Assembly: GCA_964016885.1 (NCBI GenBank)
Contig: OZ024747.1
Location: forward strand, 60,698,001-60,762,000
Direction: 5' to 3'
DNA from: Eledone cirrhosa
Lineage: Eukaryota
DNA: 64,000 nt
This document shows, piece by piece, positions 6,179-58,593 of this stretch. Within the stretch, counting starts at the first letter, position 1, and every line of letters starts with the position of its first letter. The position numbers were made by a program, and so were the translations under genes. The notes beneath the pieces are model-generated. The model did no database searches, was not told where the DNA came from, and was given only the letters and a program-made list of their open reading frames with translations.

Positions 6179-6264
6179 TTTGAAGACTAAAATCCAAAGA
6201 GGGCTTGATAAGGATAAATATATATCAAATATATAAGAGCCGTAGAGCATATATATACATGTGT

Positions 6265-6295
<31 letters not shown>

Positions 6296-6303
6296 ATATA
6301 TAT

Positions 6304-6334
<31 letters not shown>

Positions 6335-6425
6335 CATACATGTATATATATATATGCTCTACGGCTCTTATATATCTGATATATATTTATCCTTATCGAG
6401 CCCTCTTTGGATTTTAGTCTTCAAA
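6179..6425. repeat. Inverted repeat with arms of about 78 bp around a (TA)n/(TG) spacer
   Basis: tttgaagactaaaatccaaagagggc...gccgtagagcatat reappears as its reverse complement at about 6348-6425, with few mismatches. Confidence 0.85.
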
Positions 6426-8347: not shown

Positions 8348-8397
<50 letters not shown>

Positions 8398-8512
8398 GAT
8401 AAATATATATATGGGGAGGGTCATATTGTTGTAATAATATTGCCAGAATTAATAACAGAACACACTCACTGTTTGGTTGGTTTTCGCTTCTGTATCTTTT
8501 ATATCAGTTAAT

Positions 8513-11916: not shown

Positions 11917-12280
11917 GTAGGAGGTGAGTTTTATTGTAGTACAATAAAGCAATGCAGATATCGGATAAGAAGCACTCTACAGTTTGTAGGACTGGAGTAT
12001 ACATAATATAAGATCAAAAGATGGTTAAAGGAGTTCCATGTATTTTATTATGCGCATTTCAAAAACAAATATCATCATGCAATAATATTTGTGATTTAAT
12101 AATATATGTTGATTTAAAACTGCACTATCCACAAGTGTTTTTTAACCTTCATATCATGTCTTCCTGTTTTATCTGATGAAAACACAAATATTATTACATG
12201 ATGATATTTGTTTTTGAAATGCGCATAATAAAATACATGGAACTCTTTTAACCATCTTTTGTTCTTATATATTATATATA
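11917..12280. mobile_element. Penelope-like (PLE-type) foldback fragment in (TA)n, family 1
   Basis: 12005-12095 is inverted relative to 12183-12275. It is flanked by TA runs, contains a hammerhead motif and is homologous to 12856-13284 and 22830-22955. Confidence 0.65.
12167..12233 (+). ncRNA. Type I hammerhead ribozyme motif
   Basis: TTTTAT-CTGATGA-[stem II of about 15 bp]-GAAA-TGCGCA-TA-ATAAAA. Stem I is TTTTAT/ATAAAA and stem III is palindromic (ATGCGCAT). Predicted cut after A12227. Confidence 0.75.
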
Positions 12281-12327
12281 TATATATGTATGTATGTATA
12301 TATAGATATACACTTTATACTAACATT

Positions 12328-12732
12328 GGTGGATTGGCAGTATCGGTAGATGGTTGGACGCCATGCTTTGTCGCATAGAGTTACGGCCCTTTATGATCTG
12401 AGTTCAAATCCTGCCAAGGTTAACGTTACCTTTCATCCTTACGGGGGTCGATAAAATAAAGTACCAGTCACGCACTGGGGTCGATTTCATCGACTTTTCC
12501 CTCCCCCCAGAATTGCTGGCCTTGTGCCTACATAAGAAACCATTATATACATTGGCAGTAGCGATAGAGAGTCGGACACCATGCTTTGAAACATAGAGTT
12601 ACGTCCCTTTTTGATCTGAGTTCAAATCCCGCTGAGGTTATCTTTGCCTTTCATCCTTACGGGGTCGATAAAATAAAGTACCAGTAATGCACTGGGTAAT
12701 TGCTGGCCTTGTGCCAAAAAGTAGAAACAATT
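12328..12732 (+). mobile_element. Two tandem tRNA-derived SINE family A copies
   Basis: Two consecutive A-box/B-box/core units starting at about 12328 and 12552. Confidence 0.85.
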
Positions 12733-12894
12733 ATACACATACATTAAGGTTTTCCTCCTATATTAAGCATGGAACTAATATATATCTTCATTGTAAACAT
12801 CTGTTGTGTTGTTTCCATATGATTTTCACACATACTCTGTATATATATATATATAATATATAAGAACAAAAGATGGTTAAAAGAGTTCCATGTA

Positions 12895-12961
12895 TTTTAT
12901 TATGTGCATTTCAAAAACAAATATCATCATGCAATAATATTTGTGTTTTCATCAGATAAAA
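12895..12961 (-). ncRNA. Type I hammerhead ribozyme motif (minus-strand copy)
   Basis: Reverse complement reads TTTTAT-CTGATGA-stem II-GAAA-TGCACA-TA-ATAAAA. Confidence 0.65.
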
Positions 12962-13089
12962 CAGGAAGACATGATATGAAGGTTAAAAAACACTTGTGGA
13001 TAGTGCAGTTTTAAATCAACATATTGATATGTTGATTTAAAACTGCACTATCCACAAGTGTTTTTTAGCCTTCATATCATGTCTTCCTG

Positions 13090-13156
13090 TTTTATCTGAT
13101 GAAAACACAAATATTATTGCATGATGATATTTGTTTTTGAAATGCACATAATAAAA
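13090..13156 (+). ncRNA. Type I hammerhead ribozyme motif
   Basis: TTTTAT-CTGATGA(13096)-stem II-GAAA(13139)-TGCACA-TA-ATAAAA. Confidence 0.65.
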
Positions 13157-13281
13157 TACATGGAACTCTTTTCACCATCTTTTGTTCTTATATATTATGT
13201 ATACTCCAGTCCTACAAACTGTAGAGTGCTTCTTATCCGATATCTGCATTGCTTTATTGTACTACAATAAAACTCACCTCC

Positions 13282-13338
<57 letters not shown>

Positions 13339-13552: not shown

Positions 13553-14250
13553 TCTTACATGTCTCGCTCATTTCACCCTATTTTACTTGTCCCAATAACT
13601 TTATTGTGTTATTGCTTGCACCAACTAGAGGTATATGATTTTTAAAGTGATGAAATACCAATGAAAGTTGGAAGATCACTGATGAAGGACTAATTTTATT
13701 CATACGTAACCCATGTGCAACCACGCAGCACTCCATTTTTCTCATATTTATATTTTTTCCTCAGCTGTGATTGTCTGTTTCTTTCTTACTGCTTCCCCTC
13801 TCTCTGTATCTCTGACACTCTTTTTACCCTCTCGGCTGGTCTCTTCCTCACACTTCCACTCACTCACTCACTCTCTGCTTCTCCCCCTCTCTCACTTCCT
13901 CCAGTTTGACCTGTGTGAAATCCTTTTCTCGCTCACATCTCACCCATGTCGGATGGTCTGTATCTCTTCTCGTCCATGAATTCACCAAGCTTAAGCTTGC
14001 AGATATCATGTACTTGTCTCTTCCTATCTTTCCGTTGCAATACCATCTTTGTTTGTTTACATGTCTCGTTCGTTTCACCCTATTTCACTTGTCCCAATAA
14101 CTTTCTTTAGTTATTGCTCGCACCAACCAGAGGTATATGATTTTTAAAGCGATGAACTACCAATGAAAGTTTGAAGATCACTGATGGACTAATTTTATTC
14201 ATATGTAACCCATGTGCAACCACGCAGCTCTCCATTTTTCTCATATTTAT
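13553..14250 (+). repeat. About 200-bp direct repeat (13553-13755 and 14055-14250), period about 500 bp
   Basis: ttacatgtctcg...gatcactgatg(aa)ggactaattttattcat...ctcatatttat is present twice. Confidence 0.8.
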
Positions 14251-14530
14251 CATCATCATCATCATCATCAACGTTTAACGTCCGTGTTCCACGCTTGCAT
14301 GGGTTTGGACGGGGGTTTTCCCACTTGAGGCAAGAGTGATTGTCTTGCTCGCATAGGACTGTCTGGCAGGTTTTCTACAGCTGGATGCCCTTCCTAACAC
14401 CAACCACATTTACAGTGTGGGGCTGGGAGGTTTTTACCGTGTTGCCTACACGGCCACATTACAGCGTGGACTGTGTGTTTTTTTGTCGTGACACCTACAC
14501 GATCTCATTTGTTTCGGCCTCGATGGCGCG
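14250..14530 (-). mobile_element. SINE-like family B (young subfamily)
   Basis: Near-identical to 29225-29497 (-) and 60570-60840 (+). Confidence 0.8.
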
Positions 14531-22389: not shown

Positions 22390-22640
22390 CGTAGATAAAT
22401 CTACCAAGAGTTTACGGTAGTGTCCAATCCGTATGAAGAACTCAATGTATTCCGGATATCATGGTGTTAGGTATGTATATTTAATCTTGATAATTTGTAT
22501 AATTTTGTATAATTTTGTACATAGATCTGTTGAATATGCATACCAATTATAACACATATATACCCTAGAAACGATCGTTAAATAATGAACTTTTTTTGTT
22601 TAATATAAGGAATTGTTTATTCATTATTTGCTTAATATTT
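22390..22640. mobile_element. PLE-type fragment, family 2
   Basis: Homologous to 30200-30670. Carries only the 3' half of the hammerhead (GAAACGATCGTTAAATAAT at 22568). Confidence 0.6.
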
Positions 22641-22792: not shown

Positions 22793-22835
<43 letters not shown>

Positions 22836-22949
22836 AGATCAAAAGATGGTTAATCTTATATATTATGCATACTCCAGTCCTACAAACTGTAGAGTGCTTC
22901 TTATCCGATATCTGCATTGCTTTATTGTACTACAATAAAACTCACCTCC

Positions 22950-23038
<89 letters not shown>

Positions 23039-28690: not shown

Positions 28691-29224
28691 TGTATAAATA
28701 TATATATATATATGTATGCAAGCATATGTACAAGCATATGTACAAGCAGACAGTCCTATGCGAGCAAGACAATCACTCTTGCCTCAAGTGGGACTACCCC
28801 CGTCCAAACCCATGCAAGCGTGGAACACGGACGTTAAACGTTGATGATGATGATGATGATGATGATATATATATACATATATATGCACACATACACACAC
28901 ATGTATATATATATTTTTTATATAGTGTATGTACTATGTTCCAAGATAAGATGTAGCCAGACCATTATGTAATGTGGTAGTGCTGTTGCTATGGTAAAAA
29001 GCACCCTGTCCATCCTGTAAAGTGGTTGTGCTGAAGTGAAGATAAAATTCTTCCAGTGCATGGTGTAAAGTGTTTGGTGTCTGGTGTCTAGTCACAGAAG
29101 TCAAGTCACTTGACTAGTCTAGCCTCGGTATATGGCAGTTCTTTAACACCTATGCAAGCATACAAAATAAACATTAAAAGGTGATGATATACGCTCACAT
29201 ATACATACATACATTTATACATAC

Positions 29225-29497
29225 ATCATCATCATCATCATCATCAACGTTTAACGTCCGTGTTCCACGCTTGCATGGGTTTGGACGGGGGTAGTCCCAC
29301 TTGAGGCAAGAGTGATTGTCTTGCTCGCATAGGACTGTCTGGCAGGTTTTCTACAGCTGGATGCCCTTCCTAACACCAACCACATTTACAGTGTGGGTCT
29401 GGGAGGTTTTTACCGTGTTGCCTACACGGCTACATTACAGCGTGGACTGTGTGTTTTTTTTGTTGTGACACCTACACGATCTCATTTGTTTCGGCCT
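29225..29497 (-). mobile_element. SINE-like family B (young subfamily)
   Basis: Near-identical to 14250-14530. A partial + copy lies at 28745-28865. Confidence 0.8.
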
Positions 29498-30199: not shown

Positions 30200-30202
<3 letters not shown>

Positions 30203-30670
30203 GATAAATCTACCAAGAGTTTACGGTAGTGTCCAATCCGTATGAAGAACTCAATGTAATCCAGATATCATGGAAAGAAGAGATGCAATGAAAAATCACT
30301 TTCGGTAAAAGATAAACGGAATACAGAGTCAAGATAAAATATTTAAAAAATAATGAATAAAACAATGAAACAGTTCCTTATATTAAACAAAAAAAGTTCA
30401 TTATTTAACGATCGTTTCTGGGATATATATGTGTTAGAATTGGCATGTATATTTAATAATTATTTCTGAAGAAGGCATATATATGAGTTGGTATGATATT
30501 TAATTTTGATAGTTTGTATAATTTTGTATAATTTTGTACATAGATCTGTTGAATATGCATGCCAATTCTAACACATATATATCCTAGAAACGATCGTTAA
30601 ATAATGAACTTTTTTTGTTTAATATAAGGAACTGTTTCATTGTTTTATTCATTATTTTTTTAATATTTTA
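30200..30670. mobile_element. PLE-type foldback fragment, family 2, in (TA)n
   Basis: About 30345-30455 is inverted relative to about 30550-30665, and the element contains a hammerhead motif. Confidence 0.65.
30459..30605 (+). ncRNA. Type I hammerhead-like motif with a very long stem II
   Basis: ATTATTT-CTGAAGA(30466)-[114-nt hairpin]-GAAA(30587)-CGATCG-TT-AAATAAT. Stem I is ATTATTT/AAATAAT and stem III is the palindrome ACGATCGT. Confidence 0.6.
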
Positions 30671-36010: not shown

Positions 36011-36957
36011 GAGAGAGACACACACACAGATAGATATATGGAGAGAGGAGGAGAGAGAGTCAGAGATGAAAAGAGAGAAAGAGAGAGAGAGAAGACAGAC
36101 TCAGAAAGAGACAGAGAAAGACAGAGATAGAGACAGATGAAGAGAGAGACAGAGGAAGAGAGAGACAGATGAAGAGAGAGAATCAGAGACAGAGACAGAC
36201 ATATATTCTTTCAAAGATATATTTTCTTGCTATAAAGCAGTCATGGGTAAACTGTGGCCTGCAAGCCTCATTCAGCCCATTTGGCACATAATTTCAAAAT
36301 TGCCTTGAAACTTTTAGTAGTGCTGCCTAGGGTGTCTCTATATGATGAGACACCCTATGCGGCCCACACCTAAAAAATGTTGCCCATGCCTGCTATAAAG
36401 GATGGAGAGGAAAGTATAGCAGTAGTCCTCACCTTGATAGTTATAATAGTAATATTTGAATTATTTTATCTTATAACATTCTTTAGGTACCACTTGTATT
36501 TAGCAATATTCTCAGAATTTCATAGCTAACATTTTATTCAGACTACGGGAATAGAATATTCTTATTCTGTTGTCCATGATCAGTATATCCTCATATTAAT
36601 TGATTATGATGCTGATAATTATGATGCTGATTGCTTGTTCCACTTAAATTAAGGTGTTTGTGTATATATGGAATGAATAGTATTGACCTTAATATACCAA
36701 AACCATAGTGATTTCCAGAGAATTTCTGAGAAATTTTCATCTTTCTGTTGTTTTTTTCCATTGTCTTTGCCCTGTATGCTCTCTATTTTGAATATATATA
36801 TATATCATCATCATCATATATATTTATATATATATATATATATGTAGTAGGTGTTTAGTGTATTTAAGAGTGATTCTAAGAAATTTTGGGCAGTTAGTTT
36901 CAGTATATATATATTAATATCAATAAATGGAAAATATCTTTATAATACCATATTGAT

Positions 36958-37011
36958 TTTATTATACATATTTCAAGGACACAAAATTTTAGTGTGCTTT
37001 CATCAGATAAA
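36958..37011 (-). ncRNA. Type I hammerhead ribozyme motif
   Basis: Reverse complement reads TTTAT-CTGATGA-AAGCACAC-loop-GTGTCCTT-GAAA-TATGTA-TA-ATAAA. Confidence 0.65.
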
Positions 37012-37235
37012 TTATATTTGGTGTTAAGGTATTAACATACATTAGTGCAAACTTAATAGTATAAGCCCACTATCGGCAGTGAGGTAAAAATTCAAAATCA
37101 CAAGGGATATAAGTTAACAAGGATACATTAAAACAGAAAAGGACTGTTATAGACGCTAAATAAATTTTGAAAAAATAGTGTACTTATATTGGTCATGTGG
37201 CGGTCGTTAGAGGGTGAAATATTAGTGTAGAATTA

Positions 37236-37278
<43 letters not shown>

Positions 37279-37395: not shown

Positions 37396-37553
37396 CTAGC
37401 AGAATGGCCCGGCGTTGCTCGGGATTTGCTCTAGGGTTCTTATATATTTGATATATATTTATCCTTATCAAGCCTCGTGAAATAAATACGTTTGTTTATA
37501 TTTTGTTATTGTGTATACAAAAATATCTGTACACGAATATATAATTATATATA

Positions 37554-38244: not shown

Positions 38245-41211
38245 ATGTGTGTCTGTTTATCTATCTATCTATCACCGAGTCACCGTTTTAACTTGGTCGA
38301 TAGATATCGACTAGATTTTCCAACTGTGCCTACCTGGACTTGGAGAAACCACAGTGGTCAATCTAGATCGTACTTAGATAGATTCTTAGTTAGAAGTAAG
38401 GATAGGGACATATTAAGCTGTCCAGAAATGCGCACGGTTGGCTACACGGATCACAAATTAGTGACCTGCGTGGTCAATCTCGAGAAAACACATAGACAGG
38501 GTCCCGGTTACTGGAAACTTAATTTGTCTTTACCGGCAAAAGAGACTTACAGAAACCGGATTAGCAGATTAGTTAAGGAGAGGTTGACGGGTGCAATCGT
38601 CAACAACCGATGGTGGGCATCTCTCAAAAGAGAGATTAGAACAGAATCAATAAGTTATAGCAAGATGTTAGCTGCCAATAGGAATAGAAACGAGAAAGAA
38701 TTAACAGGTAAATTAGAAGAGGCAATCAAGAGCGAAGATGTGGCCAGAGTGCTGGCATCGAGGACGGCCTTGAACCAGTTTTTCGATGCAAAGCATGAAG
38801 GCTGCGTCATTCGAAGTAAAATACGTGCTCTAGGTAATGAGGGGGCCAAAGCCGTTGGATGGGCCCGCGTGACAGAAGCTAAAAGTGGAAATCGATCCAC
38901 CATCCGGTCGTTGCAAGACGAAGATGGACGAGTGATCCGGGAGCCTAAGCAGATGTGCGAGGCCTTTCAAAAGCACTTTGCCCGATTGTTCGGGGGAGGC
39001 GAGGGTCCGGGCCGGGGCGTGGATTTCGGTCCATACCTCGACGGCCTGCCGCGTCTCTCGAACAAAGAGGCGGAGTCCTGCGAGGGACCAATCTCGGCTG
39101 ATGAGATCGGAGATGCGCTGAGCCAATGCAGCAGACGCAAATCTCCAGGTCTCGATGGTATACCTTACGAACTTTATTTAGCAATGCCGGTCTTCTTCTC
39201 CGAACTCCTCGAAGCGGTCTACTGCAATTGGCAGCAGAACGGGAGAATTCCTTGTTCTGTAGCCAAGGGCGTAGTCACGCTGGTGAGGAAGGACGAGAAC
39301 AAGGGGGATAGTATAAATAATTTTCGGCCCATAACCCTGCTAAACACAGAGTTAAAGATTTTGGCCAAGGTGTTAGCAAAGAGGTTGGCGCTTGTCGTGG
39401 GTGGCCTGGTGGGAGATGCGCAGACATGTGCTATCCCATCCAGGTCCATTCACGATAACCTCCACCTCATGCGATACATCATAGAGAGGGTTGGCAACAA
39501 ACCCGGCTTCGGTGGGGCCCTGATCAACTTGGATCAGTCTAAGGCCTTCGATAGGGTCGACCATGGTTACCTGGATGCGGTGCTAGCGGCGGCTGGGTTC
39601 GGTCCTGTTTTCAGAGGCTGGATCACTGCCCTACATAGCAACCACATCTGTTCTAGGATCAAGGTGAACGGCTACCTTTCGAAGCCGTTCGAAATCACAC
39701 GATCCATTCGACAGGGGTGCCCTCTCTCCTCCCTTCTGTACGTATTGACTCTCGAGCCTTTACTGAGGAAGTTGGAGTTGTTGCAGGGTATCCCCCTGGA
39801 ACCAGGATTGAGCAAAGCGGTGTCGGCCTACGCCGATGACGTAACAGTAATGGTATCAACCGACTCGGAGATCGAGGCGATCGGTACCTTACTGGAGGAG
39901 TACGAAAGGTTGTCAGGAGCGAAACTGAACCGGGAAAAATCCATCGGGCTGCAACTCGGAACGTGGAGAGGCAGACCGATGCCTCCCGATGGTGTCGTCG
40001 GACACTGGACGGAGGGCCCGGTAAAGTTGCTTGGGGTCTGGTTTGGATCGGACCTCCAGGTGGAAAAGAACTGGAACGAGGTTACGAACAAGGTGTTTGC
40101 ACTAACCCAGAAATGGGCCAAGTGTAAGCTGTCCCTAAAAGGCCGGGCGGAGGTGGCGAACATTTACATAGCGTCCGTCACTTACTACCGCCTGACTGTC
40201 GTGCCTTGCCCTAAGGAAACACTCACCACCATGGAACGCATGCTCTTCCAATTTCTTTGGAAGAAGCGTCCTCCTATGGTGAGAAGATCCATCTGCTGCC
40301 AACAACCTTCGAAAGGAGGGCTGGGGATGCCGTGGTTGATGATGCGTAGGCACGCATTAAGGCTACGGCACCTACAGGTATTCCTCACTGGTCAACCGGT
40401 GTGGGCTCCGTTCGTGAAACGAGCCTTTCCGAGACTCGTCTCACTCACCGAGCTACAGTCCTGGGTCAAGCAAAGATCCGGAAAACTGGGAGACTGGCAC
40501 ACTGAGTGTGCTCAGGCGCTCAGGGCTCTCTGGCAAGCGGGCCGGGCCATCGGTGGAGAATCCACCTCATCATTCTATAGAGGGCTGGTGGCTAGCAGGG
40601 GCGATGACACCCTTGGAGAGTCGCTGGACATGGAAGAAGACGAACTGGCCAGCCTGTTCGGTAGGACTTTCGGCCCAGGACCAATGGACAACTTCCAGAA
40701 GTCACTGGCCTGGCAGTGCTACCGAGGGGCTCTACCCGTTCGAGAGAGGCTCTACAGACACGGGCGCCCGGGCAGGGATCCCTCAAAAAAGATTTACCCT
40801 AGATGCGTGCGTCACGAAGAAACCGTGGCGCACGCATTGGTGCAATGTCCGGGCGTGGCTGATCTGTGGGGCTACGCCGAACAACTGCTGTCGCGGGTGG
40901 CGCCGATTAAATTGACAGCCGAGTCCGTGATGACAATCAAACCGCCTCCCCTCTTCACAAAGGAAGCAAAGGCGGTTTTTCTGTGCGTAATAGCCATGTT
41001 GAAAGAGGTTGTTTGGTGGACACGATTGAAAGGTCTGAGGTCAGGCAACTTCCTCTCTGGCCATAGTCTGGTCTACTTCTTCCGATATCACTTCGGAAGA
41101 AGGATAAGAATGGAGAGAGAGGTGCTTGGCCACAGGCAGTTTTATGAAAGGTGGGTGATAGTGGCGAGAATGGCTCGTGTAAATGGGCCTTCTCTGTATA
41201 CCATCCTGTAG
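38245..41211 (+). CDS. Tx1/L1-clade non-LTR retrotransposon ORF2 (C-terminal part of the APE endonuclease, reverse transcriptase, CCHC region); 5'-truncated, with the ATG in flanking DNA
   Basis: APE motifs WTW..SYLDRFLV..TDHKLV; RT motifs KSPGLDG, FRPITLLNTELKILAK, LDQSKAFDRVDH, IRQGCPLS, AYADD and KLLGV; GGLG; C-terminal (Y)PRC...ETVAHALVQC. No stop codon over 988 codons. Confidence 0.9.
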   Translation: MCVCLSIYLSPSHRFNLVDRYRLDFPTVPTWTWRNHSGQSRSYLDRFLVRSKDRDILSCPEMRTVGYTDHKLVTCVVNLEKTHRQGPGYWKLNLSLPAKETYRNRISRLVKERLTGAIVNNRWWASLKREIRTESISYSKMLAANRNRNEKELTGKLEEAIKSEDVARVLASRTALNQFFDAKHEGCVIRSKIRALGNEGAKAVGWARVTEAKSGNRSTIRSLQDEDGRVIREPKQMCEAFQKHFARLFGGGEGPGRGVDFGPYLDGLPRLSNKEAESCEGPISADEIGDALSQCSRRKSPGLDGIPYELYLAMPVFFSELLEAVYCNWQQNGRIPCSVAKGVVTLVRKDENKGDSINNFRPITLLNTELKILAKVLAKRLALVVGGLVGDAQTCAIPSRSIHDNLHLMRYIIERVGNKPGFGGALINLDQSKAFDRVDHGYLDAVLAAAGFGPVFRGWITALHSNHICSRIKVNGYLSKPFEITRSIRQGCPLSSLLYVLTLEPLLRKLELLQGIPLEPGLSKAVSAYADDVTVMVSTDSEIEAIGTLLEEYERLSGAKLNREKSIGLQLGTWRGRPMPPDGVVGHWTEGPVKLLGVWFGSDLQVEKNWNEVTNKVFALTQKWAKCKLSLKGRAEVANIYIASVTYYRLTVVPCPKETLTTMERMLFQFLWKKRPPMVRRSICCQQPSKGGLGMPWLMMRRHALRLRHLQVFLTGQPVWAPFVKRAFPRLVSLTELQSWVKQRSGKLGDWHTECAQALRALWQAGRAIGGESTSSFYRGLVASRGDDTLGESLDMEEDELASLFGRTFGPGPMDNFQKSLAWQCYRGALPVRERLYRHGRPGRDPSKKIYPRCVRHEETVAHALVQCPGVADLWGYAEQLLSRVAPIKLTAESVMTIKPPPLFTKEAKAVFLCVIAMLKEVVWWTRLKGLRSGNFLSGHSLVYFFRYHFGRRIRMEREVLGHRQFYERWVIVARMARVNGPSLYTIL

Positions 41212-41436: not shown

Positions 41437-41963
41437 ACCGAGTCCATTGTCATGATCAAACCGCCACCCTCCTTCAAAAACGAAGGAGAGGCGGTTTTCC
41501 TTTGTGTGATAGCTATGGCGAAAGAGGTTGTATGGTGGACAAGGTTGAAAGGGCTGAGGTCAGACACCTTTCTCTCCGGCCAACAACTGATTCTTTTTTT
41601 CAAATACCACTTTGGAAGAAGAATCAGGATGGAGAGAGAGGTGCTGTACCCCGGCAAGTTTTATGAAAGGTGGGTGAAAGTGGCGAGAATGGCCCGAGTG
41701 AATGGGCCTTCTCTCTATATCAGCCTGTAGGTTGAGGAAAAGGAGAGGAAGGGAGTACAAACTCTTCGTACTCCTGGAGATGAGGGTTGCACATTTTTTT
41801 TCGGGGGTATGTGTTACCCATATAAACTGTCACCCTCTATTGGGGAAAATCGACTAACTTTTTAAATTCCATCTGTGATAACATTTTACACGTTTTTATT
41901 GTATGTAAACTTCCCCCTTTGTATTTGTCCCCTTTTTTTGTGCCCCTGTGGCTAATAAAGAAA
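41437..41963 (+). mobile_element. Tx1-clade LINE copy 2 (3' end)
   Basis: IKPPP...AVFLCVIAMAKEVVWWTRLKG...RVNGPSLY* plus a 3' UTR ending AATAAAGAAA, then (ATCT)n. Confidence 0.9.
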
Positions 41964-41983
41964 TATATCTATCTATCTATTTC

Positions 41984-42959
41984 GAGGAAAATGGGCGACT
42001 GGCTCATCGAATGTGCTCAGGCGCTCACAGCCCTCTGGCAGGCGGACCCGGCGATCAGTGGAGACTCCACTTCGTCATTCTATAGAGGGTTGATCCGCAG
42101 CAAGTGCGACGACGCGCTCGAAGAAACTCTAGGCGTGGAGGAAGATGAACTGGCCAGTCTGTTCAGTAGGACCTTCCGCCCGGGACCGATGGACAACTTC
42201 CAAAAGTCCCTGGCCTGGCAGTGCTACTGAAGAGCTCTACCAGTTCGAGACAAGCTCTACAGACATGGGCGCCCGGGCAGGGACCCTTTGAAAAAGATCT
42301 GTCCGAGATGCGTGCGAGATGAAGAAACCGTCGCGCACGCATTCATACACTGCCCGGCCGTTACCGACCTGTGAGGCTATGTAGAACGGCTATTGTCGCG
42401 GGTGGGACCAATCCAGTTGACCACCAAGTCCATTGTCATCATCAAACTGCCCCCCCCCCTCCTTCAAAAACGAAGGAGAGGCGGTTTTCCTTTGTGTGAT
42501 AGCTATGGCGAAAGAGGTTGTATGGTGGACGAGGTTAAAAGGGCTGCGGTCAGACACCTTTCTCTCCAGCCAACAACTGATTCTTTTTTTCAAATACCAC
42601 TTTGGAAGAAGAGTCAGGATGGAGAGAGAGGTGCTGTACCCCAGCAAGTTTTATGAAAGGTGGGTGAAAGTGGCGAGAATGGCCTGAGTGAATGGACCTT
42701 CTCTCTATATCAGCCTGTAGGTTGAGGAAAAAGAGGAAGAGAGGAAAGGGGTGCAAACTCTTCGTACTCCTGGAGATGAGGGTTGCACATTTTTTCAGGT
42801 GTATGTGCTACCCATATGAACTGTCTCCCCCTATTGGGGAAAATCGATTAACTTTTAATTTACAATTGTGATAACATTTTACACGTTTTTATTGTATGTA
42901 AACTCCCCCCTTTGTAATTGTCCCCTTCTTTTGTGCCCCTGTGGCAAATAAAGAAACAA
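41984..42959 (+). mobile_element. Tx1-clade LINE copy 3 (3' 1 kb, with stops and a frameshift) with 17-bp TSD
   Basis: Homologous to 40480-41425. ATCTATCTATCTATTTC at 41967-41983 and 42960-42976. Confidence 0.9.
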
Positions 42960-58040: not shown

Positions 58041-58182
58041 TACACACATATACATGCACATGGATATATATTGCTGTATCATGTTAATCAAGGTAGTTTA
58101 TGTAAACCCATGTATGCATGAATGTATATATGGATATATGTATATATGTCTGGCTGTATGTATTTATATATATATATATGTA

Positions 58183-58593
58183 GGGAGAGATGACCCCTAA
58201 GCCTTTGTCAAGGCAGAATTCTAGGAGAAGGAAAACTCTGATATAACACCTGCAACTCTGATGGTATCCAATGATGTTGACTTATTCTTCTTTTTGGTAA
58301 ATATCATCTTGGTTAAGAGAGTGGGACTAGCTTTGTGCAGTGCCTTTGCTCACTATAAAAGCTTCACGGCACAGGCATTGCTTTATATCTGGAGATCTCT
58401 CTGCACTTGTCGTCACATGCTACCATGGGCCCAGCACTATGTGTCAGTAATTGTCACAAGTGTAGTGTTTGTACCAGAGTTTTCAAGTCGCTGGCTGGAC
58501 TAAAAAGTCACACTCGTTCAGCGCATCGGTAGGGGTTCTCCTACATGGATATAAAGTAGTGGTGGTACTTGAAAACGAGTTGGCAGCCACCAT
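58183..58593 (+). repeat. Second copy of the unclassified repeat at 21520-21885
   Basis: Near-identical, with about 40 bp extra at about 58480-58522. Confidence 0.8.

What the first reader, a model, noticed from the sequence alone, without database searches (positions are those of the whole stretch)
12167..13156. Three complete type-I hammerhead ribozyme motifs within 1 kb, on both strands
Seen: the full core CUGAUGA...GAAA...UA with stem I UUUUAU/AUAAAA (extendable by UUCC/GGAA) and a stem II of about 15 bp, at 12167-12233 (+), 12895-12961 (-) and 13090-13156 (+). Stem III is the palindrome AUGCGCAU in the first copy and AUGCACAU in the other two. Established: Penelope-like retroelements and retrozymes carry type-I hammerheads with short palindromic stem III that can cleave as dimers. 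Inference: any transcript through this locus, in either direction, could self-cleave, and two + copies 0.92 kb apart could release a unit-length RNA containing two SINEs.
Basis: partly seen in the sequence, partly recalled or inferred. Interest (0 to 1): 0.75.

Follow-up and report, generated by a model that had tools for sequence, protein, structure and literature searches.

The report
Head-to-head Penelope-type hammerhead insertions
The three self-cutting RNA motifs are real, but they are copies of one very common repeat end sitting as two back-to-back pairs in TA repeats, likely left by Penelope-type jumping genes, and each is predicted to be blocked by its mirror-image neighbour, so this is an ordinary kind of insertion rather than a new RNA device.

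Summary
Observation confirmed: three complete type-I hammerhead motifs lie at the stated coordinates. They are not three independent ribozymes. One ~260-nt repeat end occurs four times as two head-to-head pairs in (TA)n: 11917-12275 and 12853-13284. In each pair only one arm carries an ~85-nt tail; a third, shorter pair lies at 22828-22952. This is the published insertion form of Penelope-like elements. The family is abundant in public DNA runs. Across copies the catalytic core is invariant, stem II changes mostly keep pairing, and stem III is AUGCGCAU, so the motif is likely a real, dimer-type hammerhead in the parent RNA. At this locus, read-through RNA is predicted to fold each motif into a long duplex with its inverted neighbour (stem probabilities 0.000), and two copies carry a rare change that breaks the palindrome. 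The proposed 923-nt SINE-bearing product is therefore unlikely. No RT/GIY-YIG frame was linked, so an autonomous parent and a retrozyme-like parent both remain open; cleavage and expression are untested. The scan has noted this architecture many times on other DNA. One detail worth a genome-wide test: paired arms can carry different subfamily variants, hinting at two RNA templates per insertion.

The parts
11917..12093 (-). Arm A: 5'-truncated inverted copy with the long end (tail); starts inside stem II, lacks CUGAUGA; variant group 'a'
12094..12103 (.). 10-nt AT-rich filler at the A/B head-to-head joint
12104..12275 (+). Arm B: repeat end with short 3' end running into (TA)n
12167..12233 (+). 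Type-I hammerhead motif 1, family-type stem III AUGCGCAU, predicted cut 12227/12228
12327..12546 (+). SINE-like repeat 1 (B-box-like motif at 12402), older than the arms
   Evidence: SINE label inferred from dispersed copies and the motif
12551..12734 (+). SINE-like repeat 2 (B-box-like motif at 12620); 20 matches in the window incl. itself, 75-96% alike
12853..13024 (-). Arm C: inverted copy with short 3' end
12895..12961 (-). Type-I hammerhead motif 2, stem III AUGCACAU, predicted cut 12901/12900
13027..13284 (+). Arm D: reference copy with long end; 2 nt from arm C, forming a 356-bp palindrome
13090..13156 (+). Type-I hammerhead motif 3, stem III AUGCACAU, predicted cut 13150/13151
13199..13284 (+). 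One-sided tail (about 81-86 nt) between the short and the long 3' end, followed by (TA)n
22828..22853 (-). Arm E of a third head-to-head pair, short end, no ribozyme
22854..22952 (+). Arm F of the third pair, long end, no ribozyme
36844..37238 (-). Diverged relative between two (TA)n runs, with a complete hammerhead motif at 36958-37011 and the same two-end design

Best explanation
The locus holds four copies of one hammerhead-bearing repeat end arranged as two head-to-head pairs in TA microsatellites, likely made by a Penelope-type reverse transcriptase/endonuclease, and the three complete ribozyme motifs are predicted to be inactive here because each pairs with its inverted neighbour. Mechanism, step by step. 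Shown: head-to-head pairs; (TA)n at every outer end; two fixed 3' ends about 85 nt apart, long on one arm and short on the other in 3 of 3 pairs; variable 5' truncation with a favoured 5' end at 13027; copies run through the cleavage site. Inferred: a GIY-YIG nuclease nicks both strands of a (TA)n run; each nick primes reverse transcription at one of two start sites downstream of the hammerhead on uncleaved RNA; the two cDNAs stop early and are joined at their truncated ends. In the parent RNA the hammerhead likely works as a dimer through AUGCGCAU, slowly or with protein help. Two such events 577 bp apart best explain the locus; the SINEs between them are older host DNA.
For: Anatomy. Family: 18 of 24 listed runs hold part of the unit (4 hold half of the words or more), 13 studies; 3,924 contigs of X1 and 4,651 reads of X24 lie on it. 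Other copies also end in (TA)n behind 13193-13203 and 13284, and four joints are listed, three of them strand-switching (13027/13191, 13027/13255, 13029/13098). Conservation: none of 12 core positions varies at >= 5% while position 7 does. Of 10 listed stem II changes 8 keep the pair, 1 is at the unpaired C.U, and 1 fits a G10.1-C11.1 form seen on one X13 contig. The diverged relative adds two-sided changes in stems II and III. Folding in context. Papers: inverted 5'-truncated copy, one-sided tail and (TA)n bias (PMC8557442; PMC3846280); both strands cut and extended, two internal RT starts defining the tail, uncleaved RNA as template, protein-assisted hammerhead (PMC11167929); opposite-strand hammerhead pairs 100-700 bp apart and weak dimer cleavage (PMC4209133).
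Against: No Penelope RT or GIY-YIG frame was found in 296 of 801 stop-free frames scanned, and no genome is held, so the parent is unseen. The tail (~85 nt) is longer than the 30-40 bp in print. No target-site duplication can be read in (TA)n. Arms B, C and D share one variant group and the same first base, which two independent events do not require. Core invariance alone is weak (p about 0.05); two stem III changes are listed in X24 (13147 in 114 reads from 2 starts; 12221 in 1,149 of 1,967 minus reads with a pile of 1,109 ends at 12218, absent from X1). The 4-copy alignment control is not significant (49 of 500 shuffles). No cleavage or RNA data.
Confidence: 0.82

Rival explanations
1. The parent is a non-autonomous retrozyme-like element (monomer longer than about 330 nt) that borrows Penelope enzymes, not the end of a coding element. 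Same insertion mechanism, different source.
For: No coding frame linked; the diverged relative shows about 230 nt upstream of its core without an obvious frame. Retrozymes are related to pLTRs (10.64898/2026.07.22.740005). Unchecked scan notes report several such families in this genome.
Against: No joint that goes back from the tail to the start is listed; one X6 contig runs 205 nt upstream of 12104 without matching the laid ribozyme stretch; no tandem copies in the window; the upstream motif does not resemble the tail end more than shuffles do (515 of 2000).
Confidence: 0.35
2. The whole 1.4-kb block (pair, 577 bp of host DNA with two SINEs, pair) moved or formed in one event, as host DNA framed by pLTRs.
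For: The block is mirror-symmetric, tails outward; B and C differ at 2 of 171 bases and B, C, D start at the same base. Capture of host DNA between pLTRs is in print (PMC3846280).
Against: Arm A belongs to another variant group; the same pair design stands alone at 22828-22952; the middle has no second copy as a block in the window.
Confidence: 0.15
3. One reading: read-through RNA self-cleaves at both + motifs and releases a 923-nt RNA with two SINEs.
For: Both + motifs have complete cores 923 nt apart; motif 1 can partly fold if the RNA starts at 12104 (stem I 0.34, stem II 0.85).
Against: Motif 3 has stem probabilities 0.000 whenever arm C is upstream; mixed stem III duplex only -5.1 kcal/mol.
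Confidence: 0.03
4. A fold-back DNA transposon (MITE) or an assembly artefact, with the ribozyme motif incidental.
For: Long inverted repeats at both ends; palindromes are hard to assemble.
Against: Arms differ at family-type sites, ends are asymmetric, similar strand-switching joints occur in independent reads and contigs, and the motif is conserved as RNA structure on one strand.
Confidence: 0.05

Closest known systems
Insertion units of endonuclease-positive Penelope-like elements (pLTR, adjacent inverted 5'-truncated copy, one-sided tail; PMC8557442, PMC3846280)
   Same: Head-to-head inverted copies, tail on one arm only, 5' truncation, (TA)n targets, type-I hammerhead near the 3' end.
   Different: No ORF linked; tail about 85 nt rather than 30-40; two pairs next to each other around host DNA.
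PLE hammerheads with palindromic helix III (PMC4209133; table S2 of PMC8557442)
   Same: CUGANGA/GAAA core, self-complementary stem III, opposite-strand pairs within 100-700 bp.
   Different: Stem II of 15 pairs with a kept pyrimidine mismatch at position 4 and A10.1-U11.1 in the window copies; the Hydra-clade rows seen have 3-7 pairs. Hydra-1_Obim has a different motif.
PAc (Poseidon, Anolis) in vitro mechanism (PMC11167929)
   Same: Two RT start sites define the tail; both strands extended; uncleaved RNA copied.
   Different: There the hammerhead overlaps the ORF start; here no ORF follows within the tail.
Metazoan non-LTR retrozymes (PMC7229834; 10.64898/2026.07.22.740005)
   Same: Short, non-coding, type-I hammerhead, high copy.
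   Different: No head-to-tail tandem seen; no evidence of RNA circles.

Membership tests
Type-I hammerhead ribozyme | Core C3-U4-G5-A6-N7-G8-A9, G12-A13-A14, A15.1-U16.1, H17 | tested here: met
   complete in three copies, invariant at >= 5% in the family except N7
Type-I hammerhead ribozyme | Three stems with covariation support | tested here: met
   8 of 10 stem II changes keep pairing; two-sided changes in the relative; small-alignment control not significant; stem I core invariant
Type-I hammerhead ribozyme | Match to an Rfam hammerhead model | tested here: not met
   the long stem II and minimal stem III may explain it (inference)
Type-I hammerhead ribozyme | Mg-dependent self-cleavage | not testable with these tools
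   needs an assay
EN+ Penelope-like element | Single ORF with PLE RT and GIY-YIG endonuclease | tested here: inconclusive
   none in 296 frames of the window; copies are truncated and no genome is held
EN+ Penelope-like element | Inverted 5'-truncated copy joined head to head | tested here: met
   3 pairs in the window, 3 more strand-switching joints in runs
EN+ Penelope-like element | Optional tail on one end | tested here: met
   3 of 3 pairs; both ends seen in runs; longer than published
EN+ Penelope-like element | Partial tandem forming direct pLTRs around the body | not testable with these tools
   no full-length copy available
EN+ Penelope-like element | AT-rich or (TA)n target | tested here: met
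   all outer ends
Non-LTR retrozyme | Head-to-tail tandem monomers each with a hammerhead | tested here: inconclusive
   none in the window, no go-back joint; a monomer over about 330 nt is not excluded
Non-LTR retrozyme | Expressed linear and circular monomer RNA | not testable with these tools
   no RNA holder listed
Hydra-1_Obim / Naiad_Obim | Sequence identity of the 3' end | tested here: not met
   Hydra-1_Obim hammerhead row and the last ~240 nt of Naiad_Obim differ by eye; three window motifs absent from the held part of the supplement

The most novel reading that the evidence does not exclude
Each head-to-head Penelope-type insertion is copied from two different RNA molecules, one per nicked strand, possibly held together by the palindromic stem III of the hammerhead, rather than by fold-back self-priming on one template. 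Arm A carries three linked variants that arm B lacks, and arm E differs from F by the same 2-nt indel. The shared 5' end at 13027 would mark the start of the uncleaved template RNA. This would give the hammerhead a role in pairing templates and is testable on thousands of pairs.
Probability: 0.25. Interest if true: 0.5.

Novelty: new member of a known kind. Interest (0 to 1): 0.18.

Why it matters
As a locus it matters little: it is one of very many such insertions. The family is a usable example of a long-stem-II, dimer-type hammerhead that Rfam misses. If paired arms come from different templates genome-wide, this would decide between self-priming (proposed in PMC3846280) and two-strand priming (consistent with PMC11167929) as the origin of Penelope inverted repeats. 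The long hairpins could also be RNA-editing or small-RNA substrates, which is untested.

Tried and rejected
No whole genome held. Rfam: no hammerhead; the microRNA-like hits are the palindrome. Pattern scan of metagenome contigs for the motif: 0. Upstream loose-end motif not in the window and no more like the tail end than shuffles, so a 258-nt tandem monomer was dropped. Pfam on 296 of 801 frames: only a LINE-type RT at 38245-41208, no GIY-YIG. No RNA holder listed; this says nothing on expression. Hi-C run X19 laid 0 reads (about 1 in 100 read; no test). ARAGORN found no tRNA in the SINE stretch. Idea that the motif is the 'HHR_half_core' of octopus Naiads: the visible end of Naiad_Obim differs; the end of Naiad_Ovul was not read. 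An extra G before arm D as a cap mark: seen in 1 of 3 arms, dropped. An initiator-like start at 13027 (consensus recalled, no call) is too weak in AT-rich DNA to count. Depth over the A/B filler in other runs is non-zero but too thin to prove the joint. Scan look-ups by sequence and place found no look-alike of this family.

Full report
Observation. The three motifs are in the sequence at the stated places. A descriptor scan gives C3 at 12173(+), 12955(-), 13096(+) and H17 at 12227, 12901, 13150, with 8 contiguous stem I pairs and a 36-nt stem II region. RNAfold pairs stem II as 3 + 12 pairs around a C.U mismatch. The scan also finds a fourth, diverged motif at 36958-37011(-). Of 150 block-wise shuffles, 2 had one locus and none had two. 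Rfam has no hammerhead match, and the isolated motifs are only marginally stable (z -0.45 to -1.57).

Anatomy. Self-comparison shows one repeat end (reference D, 13027-13284) present four times: A (11917-12093, minus, begins inside stem II), B (12104-12275, plus), C (12853-13024, minus) and D. A/B and C/D are joined at their 5' ends, with 10 and 2 nt between. B and C stop at an internal TA-rich site; A and D run about 85 nt further; all four end in (TA)n. A third pair at 22828-22952 follows the same short/long rule without a ribozyme. Between B and C lie two SINE-like repeats with B-box-like motifs, 75-96% like other window copies and so older than the arms. The relative at 36844-37238 aligns along the unit (score 108, best of 200 shuffles 58) with the same two ends.

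Family. No genome is held. 18 of 24 listed runs, from 13 studies, hold part of the unit; none is on record as RNA. I laid 4 runs on D and 4 on B with its joint, 6 different runs in all. X1 gave 3,924 contigs, X24 4,651 reads, X4 22 contigs, X19 none. Loose ends run into (TA)n behind 13193-13203 and 13284. Three strand-switching joints are listed, two at exactly 13027, where B, C and D also begin. Other copies continue upstream of that base with a shared sequence in X24, X1, X6 and X13, so 13027 is a favoured, not an absolute, 5' end. The host is probably an octopus; this rests on the repeat landscape as I recall it and on unchecked scan notes.

Is the ribozyme real? Among changes listed at 5% or more (4 and 2 rows not shown), none of 12 core positions varies and position 7 does; against 34 variable sites in 155 this alone gives p about 0.05. 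A 30-nt block of core, stem I and stem III chosen after seeing the data has 0 changes (p 0.0006) and 1. Of 10 stem II changes 8 keep the pair, one lies at the mismatch and one (U11.1 to C) fits a G10.1-C11.1 form that I read from one X13 contig. Five are A-to-G, giving G-U on this strand only; selection or editing of the template RNA would both need the stem. The loop varies freely. Stem III is AUGCGCAU in about 97-98% of the family (1,058 of 1,089 X24 reads); C and D carry the rare A. Against: RAD reads weight few loci, two stem III changes are listed in X24, the distal UU/AA extension is often broken, and the 4-copy control is not significant (49 of 500). I conclude the motif is likely a functional dimer-type hammerhead in the parent RNA; activity is untested.

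Does it work here? Alone, B and C form stem I at 0.36-0.39 and stem II at 0.86; D with its tail loses stem I (0.001). With the inverted neighbour upstream, both stems fall to 0.000 for A+B, C+D on either strand, the whole locus on either strand and nascent-RNA snapshots. An RNA starting at 12104 leaves B partly folded (0.34, 0.85) but D blocked. Stem III duplexes are -10.5 (B), -3.7 (D) and -5.1 (B+D) kcal/mol. The 923-nt product is therefore predicted not to form.

Comparison. Craig et al. (PMC8557442; 12 of 22 passages, section 11, supplement parts 2 and 23 of 59 and searches of a cut file) describe inverted 5'-truncated copies, a 30-40-bp one-sided tail and (TA)n bias. Arkhipova et al. (PMC3846280, parts 1-4 of 5) describe the same, host DNA captured between pLTRs, and propose self-priming. 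Frangieh et al. (PMC11167929, parts 1-2 of 4) show both strands cut and extended, two RT starts defining the tail, and uncleaved RNA as template. Cervera and de la Pena (PMC4209133, parts 1-2 of 4) report palindromic helix III, weak dimer cleavage and opposite-strand pairs 100-700 bp apart. Retrozyme papers: PMC7229834 (passages) and 10.64898/2026.07.22.740005 (part 1 of 5 and passages; supplements not seen). PMC13282606, PMC8967140 and PMC8969392 were seen as passages; the first has no mention of hammerheads in its main text and its supplement was not read. A search for 'hammerhead ribozyme' with 'octopus' listed 4 papers, none on this family by title or abstract start; 'Penelope' with 'twin priming' and 'inverted' listed 2 unrelated ones. 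Repbase and Dfam could not be searched, so the family may already be catalogued. No Penelope frame was found in the window, so it works like a Penelope insertion, but membership of an autonomous family is not shown.

A lead. Arm A has C13169, A13185 and a 2-nt deletion at 13189, linked also on an X4 contig; its partner B has none of them. E has the deletion and F does not. C and D share the rare stem III change but differ at a common site (13068), which fits either model. One strong and one weak case of 3 point to two templates per insertion; a later insertion beside an older copy, or conversion, would look the same.

Verdict. Real motifs, known architecture, new or uncatalogued family, locus-level claim unlikely. 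The scan has noted the same architecture at least 8 times on other DNA (unchecked). Interest 0.18.

Noticed in passing
window 30200-30670: Another head-to-head unit in (TA)n: 332-bp palindrome (84%) with a one-sided ~135-nt tail ending in CTAC(AT)n. It has GAAA followed by the palindrome ACGATCGT, while the likely first half of the core reads CTGTTGA: possibly a variant hammerhead family.
   Followed up: partly
window 22500-22640: A single arm of that same second family lies about 190 bp from the E/F pair, suggesting that these (TA)n runs are repeated targets.
   Followed up: partly
window 8385-8398, 58170-58183: Two more CTAC(AT)n ends like the long ends of the three families; 6 exact matches in the window, 0 in 100 shuffles, though dinucleotide shuffles destroy TA runs.
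   Followed up: no
window 36958-37011: Fourth hammerhead motif, minus strand, shorter stem II with the same pyrimidine mismatch at position 4 and stem III AUAUGUAU.
   Followed up: yes
window 38245-41208: 988-aa LINE-type frame with RVT_1 (E 4.5e-27) and a weak zf-RVT; a fragment of a similar 3' end at 41826-42227.
   Followed up: partly
window 28747-28864 and 29224-29341: 118-bp inverted repeat, 100% identical, ending in (CAT)n/(GAT)n; a similar stretch at about 14250-14370.
   Followed up: no
window 6179-6425: 71-bp inverted repeat (97%) around a TA-rich spacer; part of it resembles 37440-37470.
   Followed up: no
window 13555-13751 and 14057-14250: 197-bp direct repeat, 92% identical, 502 bp apart, just right of the locus.
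   Followed up: no
window 58359-58529: A short frame with a weak C2H2 zinc-finger match, below the Pfam cut-off.
   Followed up: no
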